A stretch of DNA of 7,738 bases, taken from the IMG/VR virus record IMGVR_UViG_2703718823_000003; one strand, written 5' to 3'. Below are positions 679-7,157 of the stretch, in pieces. Source of the DNA: a virus. Lineage: Duplodnaviria; Heunggongvirae; Uroviricota; Caudoviricetes. The position numbers and the translations under genes are program-made. Position 1 is the first letter of the stretch; every line of letters begins with the position of its first letter. The notes beneath the pieces are model-generated. The model was not told the origin of the DNA. It saw only the letters and a list, made by a program, of their open reading frames with translations, and searched no databases.

Positions 679-2423
679 AACTGGCACCGAACGTAAAAAA
701 ACAACCACGCGGAATAAAACACAAAGACACAGAGGTAATTATTTTCGCGGGTAGTGATGCGTGGGCACATGCAAAACAGTGGCAGGAGCAGGACGGCCCC
801 GCATCCGGCGATAATGTGCCGCCTGTGTGGCTTGGGCCAAATCAGCTTGCCGAACTTGATGCACTGAAAATTGTTCCTGATGGAAAAAAACGCGTAAGGC
901 TGTACCAGGCCGGAGAACTGGATTTGGTGGAGACCAAAAAGATTGGTCAGAAGCTGGCGGCGGCAGATATTCAGGACGCAAATTTTTACCCCGAAGGAAT
1001 GCACGTCCAGAAGTGTGAAAACTGGCGGCGCTATCTGAATGCTGAGCGTGAAAATATTGCCGCAGGGCTTACCATGCCGGAGCAGAAAAATACGCAACTG
1101 GCACAAATGGCAGACAGTGAGCGCGCGCAGCTGCTTGCCGAGCGCTTTGATGGCGTTTGTGTGCATCCGGAAAGTGAAATCGTTCACGTATGGCGCGGCG
1201 GGGTATGGTGTCCGGTCAGCACAATGGAACTTAGCCGCGAAATGGTGGCGATCTATTCAGAGCACAGGGCCACTTTCAGCAAGCGCGTAATCAATAACGC
1301 CGTGGAAGCGTTAAAAGTTATTGCCGAACCAATGGGCGAGCCGTCCGGCGATTTGTTGCCGTTCGCCAATGGTGCGCTTGACCTGAAAACGGGGGAATTT
1401 TCCCCGCACACGCCGGAGAACTGGATCACCACGCACAACGGCATTGAGTACACGCCACCAGCACCAGGGGAGAATATCTGCGACAACGCGCCAAACTTTC
1501 ATAAATGGCTTGAGCACGCAGCCGGAAAAGACCCGCGCAAGATGATGCGTATATGTGCCGCGCTGTACATGATTATGGCGAACCGGTACGACTGGCAGAT
1601 GTTTATTGAGGCCACCGGAGAGGGCGGTAGCGGTAAAAGTACATTCACGCACATAGCCAGCCTTCTGGCAGGGAAACAGAACACGGTAAGCGCTGAAATG
1701 ACCTCACTTGATGATGCTGGTGGACGTGCGCAGGTTGTCGGGAGTCGTCTTATCGTCCTGGCTGACCAGCCGAAATATACAGGCGAAGGAACGGGCATCA
1801 AGAAAATCACGGGCGGCGACCCCGTGGAAATAAACCCGAAATATGAGAAGCGTTTTACGGCGGTAATCAGGGCGGTGGTGCTGGCTACCAACAATAACCC
1901 GATGATATTCACCGAGCGGGCCGGAGGTGTGTCACGCCGTCGGGTGATTTTCCGGTTCGACAACATTGTAAGGGAGGACGAAAAAGACAAGGATTTGCCG
2001 GAGAAGGTCGCGGCTGAAATCCCCGTAATTATCCGTCGCTTGCTGGCTAATTTTGCCGACCCTGAAAAGGCACGGGCTTTATTACTGGAACAGCGCGACG
2101 GTGATGAAGCTCTGGCAATAAAGCAACAGACGGATCCGGTTATTGAGTTTTGCCAGTTCCTGAATTTTCTGGAGGAAGCACGCGGCCTGATGATGGGCGG
2201 CGGTGGCGATTCAGTGAAGTACACGACCAGAAACAGCCTTTACCGCGTCTATCTGGCGTTTATGGCATACGCAGGCAGGAGCAAACCGCTAAACGTGGCT
2301 GAGTTCAGCAAGGCCATGAAGCCAGCGGCAAAAGTTTACGGACATGAATATATTACGCGGAGAGTTAAGGGAGTAACGCAGACCAACGCAATTACAACTG
2401 ATGATTGTGACGCGTTTTTATAA
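675..2423 (+). CDS. Satellite/phage-type DNA primase-helicase replication initiator (P4-alpha / D5-like P-loop NTPase family), 582 aa
   Basis: Longest ORF in the window. Walker A motif GEGGSGKST encoded around nt 1614-1643, followed by a hydrophobic-stretch-plus-acidic Walker-B-like segment (RLIVLADQ). Size and layout resemble primase/helicase proteins of P4-like and PICI elements. An iteron array lies immediately downstream. Family assignment is from motif recognition, not a search. Confidence 0.85.
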   Translation: MKLAPNVKKQPRGIKHKDTEVIIFAGSDAWAHAKQWQEQDGPASGDNVPPVWLGPNQLAELDALKIVPDGKKRVRLYQAGELDLVETKKIGQKLAAADIQDANFYPEGMHVQKCENWRRYLNAERENIAAGLTMPEQKNTQLAQMADSERAQLLAERFDGVCVHPESEIVHVWRGGVWCPVSTMELSREMVAIYSEHRATFSKRVINNAVEALKVIAEPMGEPSGDLLPFANGALDLKTGEFSPHTPENWITTHNGIEYTPPAPGENICDNAPNFHKWLEHAAGKDPRKMMRICAALYMIMANRYDWQMFIEATGEGGSGKSTFTHIASLLAGKQNTVSAEMTSLDDAGGRAQVVGSRLIVLADQPKYTGEGTGIKKITGGDPVEINPKYEKRFTAVIRAVVLATNNNPMIFTERAGGVSRRRVIFRFDNIVREDEKDKDLPEKVAAEIPVIIRRLLANFADPEKARALLLEQRDGDEALAIKQQTDPVIEFCQFLNFLEEARGLMMGGGGDSVKYTTRNSLYRVYLAFMAYAGRSKPLNVAEFSKAMKPAAKVYGHEYITRRVKGVTQTNAITTDDCDAFL

Positions 2424-2967: not shown

Positions 2968-2985
2968 AACCGGAGAGGTGGAATC

Positions 2986-3396
2986 ATGACAGCACAGATA
3001 GCAGCTTACGGGCGGCTGGTGGACGACCCGCAGGTAAAACAGACCAGCAAGGGCACACCAATGACGCTGGCACGTATGGCGGTATCGTTGCCATGTAGTC
3101 AGGCGCAGGATGGGCAGGCGACGTTATGGCTATCGGTCATCGCATTTGGTAAGCAGGCCGACTTCCTGGCTAAACATCAAAAAGGCGACGTTGCCAGCGT
3201 ATCCGGCACGATGCAGGTCAGCCAGTGGACCGGACAGAACGGGGAAACGCGGCAGGGTTATCAGGTTATTGCAGACAGCGTAATCAGTGCCCGTGCGGCA
3301 CGTCCTGGCGGGAACAGACGCAAAACCACAGGCACACAGGGTAATCAGCCACCAGCGGGAGACGATGACCCCTACGGTGATGATATTCAGTTCTGA
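2986..3396 (+). CDS. ssb: Single-stranded DNA-binding protein (SSB family, OB fold) with a divergent acidic C-terminal tail, 136 aa
   Basis: Translation aligns by eye with E. coli SSB: an N-terminal OB-fold pattern (GRLVDDPQV.. / LWLSVIAFGKQAD.. / VSQWTGQNGETRQGYQVIADSV), a Gly/Gln/Pro-rich linker, and an acidic tail DDDPYGDDIQF (compare DFDDDIPF). Comparison is from memory. Confidence 0.8.
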   Translation: MTAQIAAYGRLVDDPQVKQTSKGTPMTLARMAVSLPCSQAQDGQATLWLSVIAFGKQADFLAKHQKGDVASVSGTMQVSQWTGQNGETRQGYQVIADSVISARAARPGGNRRKTTGTQGNQPPAGDDDPYGDDIQF

Positions 3397-3406
3397 GGGG
3401 GTGACG

Positions 3407-3919: not shown

Positions 3920-4126
3920 ATGGCTGAAGAGAAAAAAGGCGGTGTTTCGGTGTACATAAGCCCCGACATCGTGAAGGCGCTCAAGGAACGCCACCAGCAG
4001 AACGTAAAAGCAGGCATTGCGGCAGGACTTGATCCGCTGGCGATGGTTGAGCCGTCAACAGGCTGGCAGGTACGCGCCTATTTACGCGCGGCGCTGGGTA
4101 TGAATCAGGTTCACGGGGGTGAATAA
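3920..4126 (+). CDS. hypothetical protein (68 aa), first gene of the capsid operon
   Basis: AAGAGGA upstream of ATG 3920. Its stop overlaps the capsid gene start as TAATG (4124-4128). No recognisable motif. Confidence 0.6.
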   Translation: MAEEKKGGVSVYISPDIVKALKERHQQNVKAGIAAGLDPLAMVEPSTGWQVRAYLRAALGMNQVHGGE

Positions 4127-5181
4127 TGACAGTAAAAGCAATAGCACTTAACACTAACCAGCTTTTTGCGTACCTGAATCGCGAGGATATTGCGGAATTT
4201 AAATTCAGTCCGCTGTTTACCGCGCTGTTTTTCCCGAACGTGGCGACATTCAACACACAGGACATCATGTTAGATAACCTGGATATTGAAGAAGTCACTA
4301 TGTCGGCGTTTTGTTCGCCTATGGTGGGTAGCCAGGTTCAGCGCGATAAAGGGTACGAAACAAGCATTATTCGCCCTGGCTACATGAAGCCAAAACACGA
4401 AATCGATCCATTAAAAACAATAATGCGCATGGCTGGAGAAGATCCAGCACAGCTTAACGACCCTACCTACCGCCGTATGCGCCTGATTACTGGCAACATG
4501 CGCCGCCAGATAAACGCCATTAAAGCGCGCGTGGAATGGCTGGCGGTAAATGCGGTAACGACCGGAAAAAACATCATTGAGGGCGAAGGCATAGAGCGCT
4601 ATGAAATCGACTGGAAGATACCGGAAAAAAACATCATAGAGCAGGCCGACGGTAAAAAATGGTCCGAGCAGGATAAAGACATACACGATCCAATCTATGA
4701 CATTGAGCTATACGCAGATCAGGCAGGTTGCCCCGCCAACGTCATGATTATGGGCGTTGATGTATGGCGCATGTTACGCAGCTTTAAAAAATTCCGTGAG
4801 CTGTACGATCTTTCCCGTGGTTCAGAATCCGCCGCAGAGCTGGCATGTAAAAACCTGGGCGAAGTGGTGAGCTTTAAGGGCTATCTTGGTGATCTGGCCC
4901 TTATCGTCTATTCCGGCAAATACACTGACAGCGACGGTACCGAAAAATATTTCCTTGAGCCTGATTTGCTGGTCCTGGGCAACACCAACAATAAAGGGCT
5001 GGTGGCCTATGGTGCGATTATGGAACAGGAAGCGGTCAGAACTGGCGCAACGCAAAACATGTACTACCCGAAAAACTGGATTGAGGACGGCGATCCGGCG
5101 ATTGAGTACGTGCAGACACACAGCGCACCGCAGCCGGTACCGGCAGATATTCGCAAATTTGTTACCGTCAAAATTGGTTAA
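4126..5181 (+). CDS. Major capsid protein, lambda gpE-like family, 351 aa
   Basis: Translation shares multiple collinear blocks with lambda gpE as recalled: EFKFSPLF..LFF (lambda KFKFDPLF..LFF), PGYMKPKHEI (PGYVKPKHEV), DPTYRRMRLI (DPAYRRRRII), WSEQDKDIHDP.YDIELYA (WSKRDKSTYDP.DDIEAYA), VSFKGYLGDLALIVYSGKY (VSYKGMYGDVAIVVYSGQY), VLGNT..GL.AYG (VLGNT..GL.TYG), YPKNW...GDPA (YPKNW..TGDPA). Length is close to lambda gpE (341 aa). Confidence 0.9.
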   Translation: MTVKAIALNTNQLFAYLNREDIAEFKFSPLFTALFFPNVATFNTQDIMLDNLDIEEVTMSAFCSPMVGSQVQRDKGYETSIIRPGYMKPKHEIDPLKTIMRMAGEDPAQLNDPTYRRMRLITGNMRRQINAIKARVEWLAVNAVTTGKNIIEGEGIERYEIDWKIPEKNIIEQADGKKWSEQDKDIHDPIYDIELYADQAGCPANVMIMGVDVWRMLRSFKKFRELYDLSRGSESAAELACKNLGEVVSFKGYLGDLALIVYSGKYTDSDGTEKYFLEPDLLVLGNTNNKGLVAYGAIMEQEAVRTGATQNMYYPKNWIEDGDPAIEYVQTHSAPQPVPADIRKFVTVKIG

Positions 5182-5192
5182 CGGGGGATTCT

Positions 5193-5528
5193 ATGAACAC
5201 TCCATACGTTGAGTTATTTGCAGGCAGTCAGCAGGTATCAACGACGCTGGTACATTTTGCCGCTGATGCTGGCGTTATTCAGGAATTTACCCCGCTGATG
5301 CTGGCGGACAATGGCGAGTTTAAGCCGTGGGATGGTCAGGAATCTGGCAAGGCTGTTTATCTGACTTCGTATCCTGTGGACACGTCAAAGCAGAAATCAG
5401 CACAGTGTTACAAGACGGGGATATTCAATATTGCCGCCGTTAACTGGCCTGAGAGCGTCGACACCGATGCGAAAAAATGCGCCGCCTTTGCGGGTTCCGG
5501 CGTATCAGTTCAGCCGCTGGCCCGATAA
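5193..5528 (+). CDS. Head decoration protein, lambda gpD-like family, 111 aa
   Basis: Blocks shared with lambda gpD as recalled: TPLML, WDG, YKTGIF (YKSGTF), WPE, KK.AAFAGSG (KKRTAFAGT). Length matches gpD (110 aa). GGGGGA RBS 4 nt before the ATG. Confidence 0.85.
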   Translation: MNTPYVELFAGSQQVSTTLVHFAADAGVIQEFTPLMLADNGEFKPWDGQESGKAVYLTSYPVDTSKQKSAQCYKTGIFNIAAVNWPESVDTDAKKCAAFAGSGVSVQPLAR

Positions 5529-5540
5529 GCAGGGGGAACG

Positions 5541-5954
5541 ATGGCAACGAATGAAAGCATCATGGCGCTACCGCTGGCGAGTAAATTTAAAGAAGAAGCG
5601 CGGGCAATGGCTGACAGAGGTTTATCAACATACGAGGCCGTATATCAACTCAACAAACTGGAAGAGCAGGACAAGCCGCGCGCTGATGCGATTATGGCGC
5701 TTCATGAGCATAAAGACTATCAGCCGCTGTTACGTGCAATGGCAAACGTGCCATGTATTAGCGTCGATAATGCTCGTGAAATCCTGAACATGACCATAGA
5801 GCAGGAGCGCCCAAAGGTTGCACCAGAGCTTACCGCAGCCTTTGAAAACTTTATGGACATGCACAGCCCGCAAGCCGTATCAGCTGGCATGGCATACGAT
5901 GGCAGAAACCAGGGCGATGACGGCGACATCGATCGCATACTGAAAACCATCTGA
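5541..5954 (+). CDS. hypothetical protein (137 aa), last gene of the capsid operon, directly upstream of cos
   Basis: AGGGGGA RBS before ATG 5541. Acidic C-terminus. No motif recognised. Followed by a hairpin and T-run. Confidence 0.65.
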   Translation: MATNESIMALPLASKFKEEARAMADRGLSTYEAVYQLNKLEEQDKPRADAIMALHEHKDYQPLLRAMANVPCISVDNAREILNMTIEQERPKVAPELTAAFENFMDMHSPQAVSAGMAYDGRNQGDDGDIDRILKTI

Positions 5955-5960
5955 GACAAG

Positions 5961-5983
5961 GCCGGAGAAATCCGGCTTTTTTT
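5961..5983 (+). terminator. Rho-independent terminator overlapping the cosQ-side flank
   Basis: Stem GCCGGA (5961-5966) / TCCGGC (5971-5976), loop GAAA, T7 run (5977-5983). The hairpin is nearly identical to the one at 3686-3708. Confidence 0.5.
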
Positions 5984-6211
5984 ACGGGTCCTTTCCGGCA
6001 TATGGACCCGTTACGGGGCGGCGACCTCGCGGTTTTTCGCTATTTATGAGATTTTTTGAGGGGGTGGTTGTTGTTTAATTGTTTGGTATATCTAATTGAT
6101 AAGTAAGGTAAAAATAAAATAAATACAACAACCTTACGATGTATTTTGATGTCATTAATGTGAAAAAATTCAATGATATCAAATGGTTTTGTAAAAACAC
6201 ATGGTTGTTGT
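5984..6211 (+). other. cos site 1 (lambda-type cosQ-flank, cosN, cosB-like region), + orientation
   Basis: TTTACGGGTCCTTTCCGG...GTTACG | GGGCGGCGACCT | CGCGG matches the lambda right-end/cosN/left-end junction as recalled; the 12-nt cohesive-end sequence GGGCGGCGACCT is at 6016-6027. Downstream there are three copies of GGTTGTTGT (6066-6074 direct, 6125-6133 inverted, 6203-6211 direct), spaced like lambda cosB R3/R2/R1. Confidence 0.7.
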
Positions 6212-6404
6212 ATCGCGTATTTGATGGCGTAACAGAAAGTGATTTTTAACTTTACCGCTCTGTAACTACGGATTATTCCATGCTGGCACGGAGAACGGCT
6301 ACGGCATGACGCCACCCAGCCTATACAGAACAGTAAAGCCGATAAATTGTTAATCACGCGCAGCAATGCGTGTGATTTTTGCACACTTCCGGTTAACTGG
6401 TACG

Positions 6405-6590
6405 ATGTCCGGTTTTAGTGTCTGTTTTTTGCGCATGTCCGGTTCATGGAAAGCATGTTTTTATATTTTTCATATGGTTAACTTGCAGAGAAACCGGACA
6501 TGGATCCCGGAAAATTTTCATAAATAGTGAAAACGCGCGAGGTCGCCGCCCCGTAACGGGCCATAATTCCAGGAAGGACCCGACGACACC
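6405..6590 (-). other. cos site 2 (lambda-type cosQ-flank, cosN, cosB-like region), inverted orientation
   Basis: The reverse complement of 6500-6590 reads ..GGGTCCTTCC.GG....CCCGTTACG | GGGCGGCGACCT | CGCGCGTTTTCACTATTTATGAAAATTTTCCGG, almost identical to the lambda cos left end as recalled; cosN is at 6540-6551 on the minus strand. Three copies of ATGTCCGGTT / AACCGGACAT lie at 6492-6501, 6435-6444 and 6405-6414, at R3/R2/R1-like distances. Confidence 0.7.
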
Positions 6591-6615
6591 AGACTATCAG
6601 AACGATGGGGGCACA

Positions 6616-6897
6616 ATGACAGAAGCCGAACTACTGCGATTAATCCGTCGCGTTGCCGGAATCAGCCAGCAGGCTGACGAACAGGCCACGCAGCCGGACA
6701 GCGTGACAGCCGAAAATTATGTGCGTGTTGTTGCGGAGGTGATGCGCCGTGATGGTATCCAGCTTAATGATGCGGATATGCGCGACATACGGATCCGCGT
6801 TCTTGAAATGCTGGCCTACCGTCGCCGCGTGCAGACGTACAGGGAAAAAGCAAAAATAACGTACCAGTGGAAGAAGCCGGAGCGATTACGGCGGTAA
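6616..6897 (+). CDS. hypothetical protein (93 aa), Arg-rich
   Basis: ATG 6616 with a GGGGG stretch about 5 nt upstream. The track ORF extends upstream to GTG 6418, through the cos sequence, which is unlikely. Ends at TAA 6895-6897. No motif recognised. Confidence 0.55.
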   Translation: MTEAELLRLIRRVAGISQQADEQATQPDSVTAENYVRVVAEVMRRDGIQLNDADMRDIRIRVLEMLAYRRRVQTYREKAKITYQWKKPERLRR

Positions 6898-6917
6898 CTT
6901 GCTGATATTCCCGATAA

Positions 6918-7157
6918 CGCAAAATTGCGCTCTGTCCTAACCCGTTGATATTTTCGGGAACAGCCAACGGCTGAGGCCGGAACAACGATTATCTTTCAGA
7001 TAGTCAGAGCTACGAAATTTTCGTAGTTTAATTACTCGCCAGTTTATCGTTAACCCGTTGATATTTTCGGAAACCTCAATTTGAGGAAGTCGGCGCGGTA
7101 ACTCGCTGAACTTTAAGCAAAGCGCAAAATTGCGCTTGCTGAATAATCATTATGATT
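6918..7157. repeat. Cluster of direct repeats and dyad symmetries (candidate regulatory region)
   Basis: 20-bp direct repeat TAACCCGTTGATATTTTCGG at 6938-6957 and 7051-7070. Dyad CGCAA-AA-TTGCG at 6918-6929 and, extended, at 7121-7136. Palindromes CTACGAAA-T-TTTCGTAG (7010-7026), CCTCAA-T-TTGAGG (7074-7086), AATCAT-T-ATGATT (7145-7157). Confidence 0.5.

What the first reader, a model, noticed from the sequence alone, without database searches (positions are those of the whole stretch)
5984..6590. Two complete lambda-type cos sites in inverted orientation, each with its own cosB-like repeat set
Two copies of the cosQ-flank plus cosN (GGGCGGCGACCT at 6016-6027 on +, and 6540-6551 on -) form an inverted repeat of about 55 bp around a 512-bp AT-rich segment. 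Each cosN has a different triplet of short repeats on its inner side at nearly the same distances (about +39, +98, then +126 to +176): GGTTGTTGT for cos1 and ATGTCCGGTT for cos2. This mirrors the lambda R3/R2/R1 terminase-binding layout but with two different recognition sequences. A single lambda-type cos is expected for a cos-packaged element. Two convergent cos sites could let the element be packaged by two helper terminase specificities, or by native versus redirected terminase complexes. The inverted arrangement would avoid premature termination at the partner site. An alternative is homologous inversion of the inner segment, which would swap which cosB sits next to which flank.
Basis: partly seen in the sequence, partly recalled or inferred. 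Interest (0 to 1): 0.85.

Follow-up and report, generated by a model that had tools for sequence, protein, structure and literature searches.

The report
Invertible two-cos packaging module of PICI
An E. coli phage-parasitic island of the EcCICFT073 family carries two head-to-head copies of the lambda-type DNA-packaging start site, each copied from a different group of helper phages. The dual site is already published, but this version has lost the island's packaging-redirection gene, and the piece between the two cut sites is found flipped in related strains.

Summary
cosN (GGGCGGCGACCT) lies at 6016-6027 (+) and 6540-6551 (-), inside 72-nt inverted arms, and each cosN has its own triplet of short repeats.

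The window is an EcCICFT073-family PICI. Its two functional cos sites, cos1 and cos2, were published in 2018 and 2019, so the core finding is known.

Four things appear new relative to those papers:
- **cos2 is a phage cos.** The ATGTCCGGTT site is about 94% identical to the cos of PhiR12-type lambdoid phages, directly upstream of Nu1.
- **The window's cos1 is not the published Rpp-dependent site.** The GGTTGTTGT site is about 92% identical to a second prophage cos, directly upstream of its terS.
- **The two TerS proteins differ where it matters.** They are 86% identical in the C-terminal part and 15% identical in the DNA-binding domain.
- **rpp is gone.** Only a 22-codon remnant remains.

The cosN-to-cosN segment is also inverted in other genomes. 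Window-type modules split 3 genomes to 9, and CFT073-type modules split 68 to 15. In some pairs the flanks and interior are otherwise identical.

Best reading: a two-key packaging module for two helper terminase specificities. The inverted layout would keep either site from terminating packaging started at the other. Recombination in the shared cosN core flips and exchanges the segment.

The parts
5541..5954 (+). Left flanking PICI gene (137 aa). It is conserved next to the cosQ1 arm. It matches phrog_1999 and the C-terminal part of a head maturation protease/scaffold family.
   Evidence: annotated as a CDS in L001, L002 and L003
5958..5983 (+). Terminator-like hairpin (GCCGGA-GAAA-TCCGGC) followed by a run of T, ending the upstream operon just before cos.
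   Evidence: RNA fold of 5950-5990: -17.7 kcal/mol, z = -4.1. The consensus scan did not list it.
5985..6015 (+). cosQ-side arm of cos-G (cosQ1). It contains the CGGGTCCTTTCC box and stays attached to the left flank when the inner segment is flipped.
6028..6231 (+). cosB of cos-G: an I2-like region (6028-6056) followed by R-box-like repeats GGTTGTTGT at 6066-6074 (+), 6125-6133 (-) and 6203-6211 (+). Positions 6045-6231 are about 92% identical to a prophage cos directly upstream of terS.
6255..6320 (-). Remnant of the last 22 codons of an rpp gene, on the minus strand. At 6317-6321 (CAGCC microhomology) it is joined to the last codons of an rppA-type gene on the plus strand.
6355..6372 (+). 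Hairpin followed by a T-rich tail, at the position that lies just downstream of the rppA stop codon in CFT073.
It is about 94% identical to the PhiR12-type phage cos directly upstream of Nu1. The motif resembles the phage 21 R box CATGTCGGnCC.
6540..6551 (-). cosN of cos-A.
6552..6582 (-). cosQ-side arm of cos-A (cosQ2). It stays attached to the right flank when the inner segment is flipped.
6016..6551 (.). Naturally invertible and exchangeable segment, running cosN to cosN (536 bp). Both orientations are found relative to the flanking genes.
6616..6897 (+). Right flanking PICI gene (93 aa, phrog_1561, function unknown).
   Evidence: annotated as a CDS in L001 and L003

Best explanation
The region is the DNA-packaging module of an EcCICFT073-family phage-inducible chromosomal island (PICI). 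It holds two complete lambda-type cos sites (cosQ, cosN, cosB) placed head to head.

**Origin of the two sites.** In this island both cosB regions are copies of helper-phage cosB regions. cos-G (GGTTGTTGT boxes) matches the cos of one lambdoid phage group. cos-A (ATGTCCGGTT boxes) matches another. The TerS proteins of the two groups share their C-terminal, TerL-facing part but have unrelated DNA-binding domains.

**Proposed working (inferred).**
1. A helper of either type binds its own cosB through its native TerS.
2. TerL then nicks the adjacent cosN.
3. Packaging runs away from that site around the island concatemer and ends at the next cosQ-cosN in the same orientation.
4. Because the partner site is inverted, it is not read as a termination signal. 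Both sites therefore survive every packaging round. Two direct copies would delete the intervening DNA.

**Loss of redirection.** Unlike EcCICFT073, this island has lost rpp. It would rely on native terminases rather than on Rpp-TerS redirection.

**Recombination.** The conserved cosQ-cosN-I2 arms (25 to at least 47 bp identical) act as recombination sites. Exchange inside the cosN core flips the inner segment and moves it between islands. The exchange is probably stimulated by cos cleavage during helper growth.
For: **Shown here**
- Both cosN sites, the arms and the repeat triplets are present.
- The PICI context is clear: integrase, primase, and the same flanking genes as CFT073.
- cos-A is 93.9% identical over 179 bp to the PhiR12_1 cos, next to Nu1.
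- cos-G is 91-92% identical over 187 bp to the O111 prophage cos, next to terS.
- All 61 non-PICI IMG/VR contigs with cosN plus GGTTGTTGT and readable downstream DNA carry an O111-type TerS.
- 98 contigs with cosN plus ATGTCCGGTT carry a PhiR12-type TerS aligned from residue 1.
- The two TerS proteins are 86% identical in the C-terminal part and 15% in the N-terminal domain.
- No rpp is present, only a 22-codon tail.
- A second, independently built G+A module without functional rpp exists (L026).
- Inversion is exact at the cosN core. HM670 versus WP4-S17 and MSB1_7A differ by nothing but orientation over 2.1 kb.
- Counts are 3 versus 9 genomes and 68 versus 15 genomes.
- The non-coding interior is 98.3-100% identical between islands whose right flank is only about 88-94% identical.

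**From the literature, for EcCICFT073**
- Both cos sites support lambda- and phi80-mediated transfer.
- The double deletion abolishes transfer.
- RppA-TerS uses only the cosB of cos1 (PMC6092414, PMC6739421).
Against: - No experiment exists for this island or for either TerS and cosB pair. Binding and cleavage are inferred from position and co-occurrence.
- In EcCICFT073, deleting cos2 raised lambda-mediated transfer rather than lowering it (PMC6092414). No helper that depends on cos2 has been reported.
- The third repeat of cos-A has the opposite orientation to R1 of lambda and phage 21.
- An IHF consensus is only weakly matched in cos-G and not matched in cos-A.
- Co-residence of a matching helper was seen in only 2 of 9 IMG/VR genomes, from capped scans.
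- The reason for the inverted layout and the cause of flipping are arguments, not tests.
Confidence: 0.72

Rival explanations
1. Only one cos site is used. The other is a passenger relic, picked up by recombination with a helper phage and not yet lost.
For: - In EcCICFT073, cos2 is dispensable, and its deletion even improves lambda-mediated transfer (PMC6092414).
- The junctions at 6317-6321 and in L026 show that these modules arise by illegitimate recombination.
Against: - Both sites keep intact cosQ, cosN, I2 and all three repeats at phage-like positions.
- The non-coding interior is better conserved than the flanking genes.
- The G+A combination arose at least twice (window type and L026).
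- Dual sites persist in more than 90 complete genomes.
- Both CFT073 sites were functional on plasmids (PMC6092414).
Confidence: 0.13
2. The segment is a regulatory invertible switch (phase variation). Its orientation would control expression of rpp or the downstream 93-aa gene, or set the packaging direction for co-transfer of neighbouring chromosomal DNA.
For: - Both orientations occur in otherwise identical islands.
- One genome (GF4) holds one copy in each state.
- In CFT073-type modules rppA lies inside the flipped segment.
Against: - No site-specific recombinase gene lies in or next to the segment.
- No sigma-70-like promoter was found in 5850-6950.
- The window-type segment holds no intact gene.
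- Either state leaves two complete cos sites, so packaging function should not change.
- Two copies in STEC2018-607 are in the same state.
Confidence: 0.08
3. The paired sites act mainly against the helper. They would serve as a decoy or trap that titrates terminase, or provoke double cutting, and so replace the lost Rpp interference.
For: - The island has lost rpp yet keeps two helper-type sites.
- Deletion of cos2 in CFT073 changes transfer efficiency (PMC6092414), which suggests the two sites interact.
Against: - There is no direct evidence.
- Two sites per 10-15 kb island would be a weak sink.
- Islands with a single phage-type cos, such as SaPIbov5 and P4, are explained by packaging alone (cited in the cf-PICI preprint).
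Confidence: 0.05
4. The dual inverted arrangement or its two orientations are assembly or chimeric artefacts.
For: Inverted repeats can confuse short-read assemblers.
Against: - The same structure appears in many independent complete genomes from different laboratories and in IMG/VR contigs.
- It was verified experimentally in CFT073 (PMC6092414).
Confidence: 0.01

Closest known systems
EcCICFT073 cos1/cos2 module (Fillol-Salom et al. 2018 ISME J; 2019 Mol Cell)
   Same: - Same PICI family and same flanking genes.
- Two lambda-type cosQ-cosN units in inverted orientation.
- The window's cos2 is the published cos2 (96.6% identity over 235 bp; sequence in suppl. Fig. S5).
   Different: - The window's cos1 is not the Rpp-dependent cos1. 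It carries a phage-type cosB with three GGTTGTTGT boxes.
- rppA, which lies between the sites in CFT073, is reduced to a 22-codon remnant.
- The spacing between the two cosN sites is 512 bp instead of 727 bp.
- The papers called the PICI cosB regions 'completely divergent' and left 'why two cos sites' open. The main text of both papers and the 2018 supplement do not use the word 'inverted'. No mention of flipping turned up in my searches.
Lambda versus phage 21 packaging specificity (cosB R boxes read by the TerS winged-helix domain)
   Same: - Three short repeats at about bp 50, 107 and 140-190 after cosN, directly upstream of terS in the source phages.
- The specificity difference lies in the TerS N-terminal domain.
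- The cos-A box ATGTCCGG resembles the phage 21 box ATGTCGG.
   Different: - The two specificities sit side by side on one element.
- The GGTTGTTGT type and its TerS were not found described in the papers I could search.
- The orientation of the third cos-A repeat differs from lambda and phage 21.
Satellites that carry a copy of the helper's cos (P4; SaPIbov5; SaPIbov4 with two putative cos sites)
   Same: Packaging is achieved by copying the helper's cos, with no satellite terminase subunit needed (PMC6092414).
   Different: Here there are two copies from two helper groups, inverted and flippable.
Herpes simplex virus 'a' sequences (from general knowledge, not tested here)
   Same: Inverted repeats that contain the cleavage and packaging signal also mediate inversion of the DNA between them.
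   Different: Unrelated sequences and enzymes. This is an analogy only.
Recombinase-driven invertible segments (Mu G, P1 C, Salmonella hin, E. coli fimS)
   Same: A DNA segment bounded by short inverted repeats is found in both orientations.
   Different: - No dedicated invertase gene is adjacent.
- No gene or promoter is switched in the window type.
- The repeats are packaging sites.

Membership tests
Lambda-type cos site | 12-nt cohesive-end sequence cosN (GGGCGGCGACCT) | tested here: met
   Exact matches at 6016-6027 (+) and 6540-6551 (-).
Lambda-type cos site | cosQ/R4 box about 20-30 bp upstream of cosN | tested here: met
   CGGGTCCTTTCC at 5986-5997 equals the annotated R4 box of phage 21. 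cos2 has CGGGTCCTTCCT.
Lambda-type cos site | cosB with TerS-binding R repeats at set distances after cosN, next to terS in the phage | tested here: met
   Repeat triplets begin at bp 51. Homologous phage regions end at the terS start. Each motif goes with one TerS type.
Lambda-type cos site | IHF site I1 between R3 and R2 | tested here: inconclusive
   Only 1-mismatch matches to WATCAANNNNTTR at 6076-6101 in cos-G, and none in cos-A.
Lambda-type cos site | Cleavage by terminase and use as virion DNA ends | not testable with these tools
   Shown only for the CFT073 relatives, by transfer assays (PMC6092414).
EcCICFT073-type PICI dual-cos module | Located in a PICI of this family, between the 137-aa and 93-aa genes | tested here: met
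   89-97% identity to CFT073 and related islands across the window.
EcCICFT073-type PICI dual-cos module | Two cosN sites in inverted orientation with cosB regions facing inward | tested here: met
EcCICFT073-type PICI dual-cos module | rpp gene directly downstream of cos1 | tested here: not met
   tblastn finds only residues 123-144, on the minus strand at 6320-6255.
EcCICFT073-type PICI dual-cos module | cos1 carries the Rpp-type cosB (a single R3-like site, with the rpp start about 90-100 bp after cosN) | tested here: not met
   The window's cos1 diverges from CFT073 cos1 after bp 41 and instead matches a prophage cosB.
Site-specific invertible segment (Hin/Gin or FimB/E type) | Dedicated recombinase gene next to the segment | tested here: not met
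   None is annotated in or beside the module. The island integrase lies about 9 kb away.
Site-specific invertible segment (Hin/Gin or FimB/E type) | A promoter or coding region whose output changes with orientation | tested here: not met
   No promoter-like site and no intact gene inside the window-type segment.

The most novel reading that the evidence does not exclude
The cosN-to-cosN segment would be a cos-driven cassette. When a helper terminase cuts cos, the break in the conserved cosQ-cosN-I2 core triggers recombination with the inverted partner site or with another island or phage. Alternatively, both sites are cut and the fragment, which then has two identical cohesive ends, is re-joined.

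This would flip the segment. It would also let islands collect, swap and discard helper-specific cosB 'keys' and rpp.

On this reading the packaging site doubles as the recombination site through which satellites track changing helper terminase specificities. Orientation would set the packaging direction relative to the chromosome before excision.
Probability: 0.3. Interest if true: 0.7.

Novelty: new variant of a known kind. Interest (0 to 1): 0.5.

Why it matters
The authors who discovered these islands asked why some of them have two different cos sites. This analysis gives a concrete, testable answer. Each site matches one allele of the helper phages' TerS DNA-binding domain, so one island can be mobilised by two helper groups. 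In this variant that happens with no redirection protein at all.

The analysis also shows that the packaging module is modular and mobile. Three layouts occur: Rpp-type plus A, Rpp-type plus G, and G plus A. The module flips in nature. That matters for predicting which phages spread these virulence-associated islands, and for engineering PICI-based delivery particles with a chosen helper range.

Tried and rejected
- **rpp or terS in the window.** I found only a 22-codon rpp tail. The 137-aa protein has no match among solved structures.
- **cos-G in deposited phage genomes.** blastn found only the shared I2 region. The matches came from prophages in E. coli genomes and from IMG/VR contigs.
- **Regulatory switch.** There is no sigma-70-like promoter in 5850-6950. 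No recombinase lies nearby. I ranked this reading low.
- **IHF site.** The scan was inconclusive.
- **Third near-cosN.** GGGCGGCGACCC at 1811-1822 lies inside the primase gene, encodes part of ITGGDP, and lacks the cos flanks. I judged it a chance match.
- **Terminase cut-and-rejoin versus homologous recombination.** Sequence cannot separate them, because both place the exchange in the 25-bp core. In the sublineage that holds every flipped CFT073-type genome found, both cosQ arms are identical, which looks like gene conversion. That leans towards recombination.
- **Literature on inverted cos sites or cos-mediated inversion.** Searches returned nothing.
- **Co-residence of matching helpers.** This could only be sampled anecdotally, because both collection scans were capped.

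Full report
**1. Observation**

The lambda cohesive-end sequence GGGCGGCGACCT occurs at 6016-6027 on the plus strand and at 6540-6551 on the minus strand. Fewer than 0.01 matches are expected by chance, even allowing one mismatch.

The two sites lie inside inverted arms at 5985-6056 and 6511-6582. The arms are 72 nt long and 83% complementary. Their perfect core is 25 bp, at 6007-6031. The arms begin at the cosQ/R4 box (CGGGTCCTTTCC, as annotated in phage 21) and end in the I2-like region shared by lambda-like phages.

The 512 bp between the two cosN sites have 37.9% GC, against 49.2% for the window.

GGTTGTTGT occurs three times (6066+, 6125-, 6203+). ATGTCCGGTT occurs three times (6405+, 6435+, 6492-). 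Neither occurs anywhere else in the window, and 0 of 200 shuffles gave three copies of either. The first-stage description is therefore accurate.

**2. What the element is**

The window is part of a phage-inducible chromosomal island of the EcCICFT073 family.
- It aligns at 89-99.7% identity with islands in CFT073, STEC2018-607 and S1-CAM-02-A.
- Those islands carry an integrase, a D5-type primase, SSB, PerC and the same genes on either side of the cos region.
- CFT073 itself has two inverted cosN sites.

This is published.
- Fillol-Salom et al. 2018 (PMC6092414) named the sites cos1 and cos2. Both support lambda- and phi80-mediated transfer, and deleting both abolishes transfer.
- Fillol-Salom et al. 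2019 (PMC6739421) showed that RppA, the product of c1503, binds helper TerS and redirects it to the cosB of cos1 only. [quoted passage not shown]
- The review by Murialdo and Feiss (PMC9026076), in the sections I read, treats only the Rpp-type cos.
- The main text of the 2018 and 2019 papers, and the 2018 supplement, do not use the word 'inverted'. The 2018 supplement describes the PICI cosB regions as completely divergent from phage ones.

**3. How the window differs from the published island**

In CFT073 the rppA gene (144 aa) lies between the two cos sites, about 90 bp after cos1. It matches the solved RppC structure 6hlk at E = 5e-31.

The window has no rpp. Only residues 123-144 are detectable, on the minus strand at 6320-6255.

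The window's cos2 is the published cos2, with 96.6% identity over 235 bp. The window's cos1 departs from CFT073 cos1 about 41 bp after cosN begins.

**4. Origin of the two cosB regions**

*cos-A (ATGTCCGGTT).* It is 93.9% identical over 179 bp to the cos of PhiR12-type lambdoid phages, where it lies directly upstream of Nu1. Its repeats sit at bp 51-60, 108-117 and 138-147 from the cohesive end. They resemble the annotated R boxes of phage 21 (CATGTCGGnCC at bp 50-65, 107-122 and 150-165).

*cos-G (GGTTGTTGT).* It is 91-92% identical over 187 bp to a prophage cos in STEC O111, O103 and O145 genomes, ending at the terS start. Its repeats are in plus, minus, plus order, as in lambda and phage 21.

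*Association with TerS type in IMG/VR.*
- All 61 non-PICI contigs with cosN plus GGTTGTTGT and readable downstream DNA encode an O111-type TerS.
- 98 contigs with cosN plus ATGTCCGGTT encode a PhiR12-type TerS, aligned from its first residue.
- The two TerS proteins are 86% identical in the C-terminal part and 15% identical in the N-terminal DNA-binding domain.

The two cosB regions therefore correspond to two alleles of the helper TerS recognition domain on an otherwise common terminase.

**5. The module is combinatorial**

Three layouts occur:
- Rpp-type cos with rppA, plus cos-A (CFT073).
- Rpp-type cos with rpp, plus cos-G (L086 and eight IMG/VR contigs).
- cos-G plus cos-A without rpp (the window type).

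The window junction at 6317-6321 joins an inverted rpp tail to the last codons of an rppA-type gene through the microhomology CAGCC.

A second G+A module, L026, arose separately. In it a phage cos-A and the first roughly 8 codons of a PhiR12-type terS are fused to the C-terminal half of rpp, through a 7-bp microhomology.

**6. Inversion**

*Window type.* In S1-CAM-02-A the flanks align to the window on one strand and the inner segment aligns on the other. A window sequence flipped exactly between the two cosN sites reproduces that genome. The cosQ arms stay with their flanks, and the same holds in twelve further loci.

Among complete E. coli genomes the window orientation occurs in 3 genomes (4 copies) and the flipped one in 9. 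Strain GF4 holds one copy of each. IMG/VR gives 4 in the window orientation and 5 flipped.

*CFT073 type.* 68 genomes are unflipped and 15 are flipped, with rppA reversed in the flipped ones.

HM670 (unflipped) and WP4-S17 and MSB1_7A (flipped) show no differences in the 751-bp interior or in 700 bp on either side. That inversion is therefore recent.

In this sublineage both cosQ arms are identical, which gives a perfect inverted repeat of at least 47 bp and looks like gene conversion.

*Recurrence and exchange.* One window-orientation locus (L070) carries the haplotype typical of flipped loci, which suggests more than one inversion event.

The non-coding interior is 98.3-100% identical between islands whose right flank is only about 88-94% identical. 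The segment is therefore exchanged between islands or is under strong constraint.

**7. Mechanism proposed**

*Shown:* the anatomy, the phage origin of both cosB regions, the link between repeat motif and TerS type, the loss of rpp, and the inversion polymorphism.

*Taken from the literature on the relative:* both cos sites work in transfer assays.

*Inferred:*
- Each helper type starts packaging at its own site, using its native terminase.
- The inverted layout stops the partner site from acting as a termination signal. That would otherwise delete the intervening DNA, because termination needs cosQ upstream of cosN in the direction of travel (established lambda biology, from my own knowledge).
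- Flipping results from recombination in the shared core, plausibly stimulated by cos cleavage.

A double cut would release a fragment with two identical 5' overhangs. Such a fragment can be re-joined either way round. This follows from the sequence but is untested.

**8. Alternatives**

- A relic second site is possible but fits poorly with the conservation and the repeated assembly of dual modules.
- A regulatory switch lacks a recombinase, a promoter and a switched gene.
- An artefact is excluded by recurrence in many independent assemblies.

**9. Verdict**

The core finding is already known for this island family.

What appears new is:
- the phage identity of cos2;
- a second phage-type cosB with its TerS allele;
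- the rpp-less two-key variant;
- the natural inversion and exchange of the segment.

I rate this a new variant of a known kind, of moderate interest.

Noticed in passing
window 4126-5181, 5193-5528, 5541-5954: The island encodes a lambda gpE-like major capsid protein (PF03864, E = 2e-49), a gpD-like head decoration protein (PF02924) and a 137-aa protein that matches the C-terminal part of a head maturation protease/scaffold family. The 2018 paper states that EcCICFT073 lacks capsid morphogenesis genes and is packaged in full-size helper capsids.
   Followed up: partly
L003 and L088 (NZ_CP075697.1 at 5.12 Mb and 0.81 Mb); NZ_CP172217.1 at 1.06 Mb and 5.15 Mb: Some strains carry two related copies of this island at different chromosomal sites. 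STEC2018-607 has both copies in the window orientation. GF4 has one copy in each orientation.
   Followed up: partly
L026 interior (IMGVR_UViG_2718217885_000003): Within a dual-cos module, the first roughly 8 codons of a PhiR12-type phage terS are fused in frame to the C-terminal half of rpp, through a 7-bp microhomology (GCCAGGC). This is a footprint of illegitimate island-phage recombination at cos.
   Followed up: partly
window 1811-1822: A one-mismatch copy of cosN (GGGCGGCGACCC) lies inside the primase gene, encodes part of ITGGDP, and has no cosQ or I2 flanks. It is probably a chance match.
   Followed up: yes
window 2977-3405 versus L003 6501-6507: The SSB gene (2986-3396) is present in the window and in the yejO-site copy (L088). 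It is absent from the otherwise 99.7% identical copy L003.
   Followed up: no
IMG/VR genomes 2671180296 (L009, L105, L153) and 2541047826 (L028, L136): Two genomes that carry a window-type island also carry a prophage contig with the cos-A type site. These prophages are candidate resident helpers. The scans were capped, so absence elsewhere says nothing.
   Followed up: partly
L008, L015, L031, L053 (IMG/VR): A few phage contigs have GGTTGTTGT after cosN but start terS only about 89 nt after cosN, as in the single-R-box layout of phage N15. Their TerS is only 45-53% identical to the O111 type.
   Followed up: no
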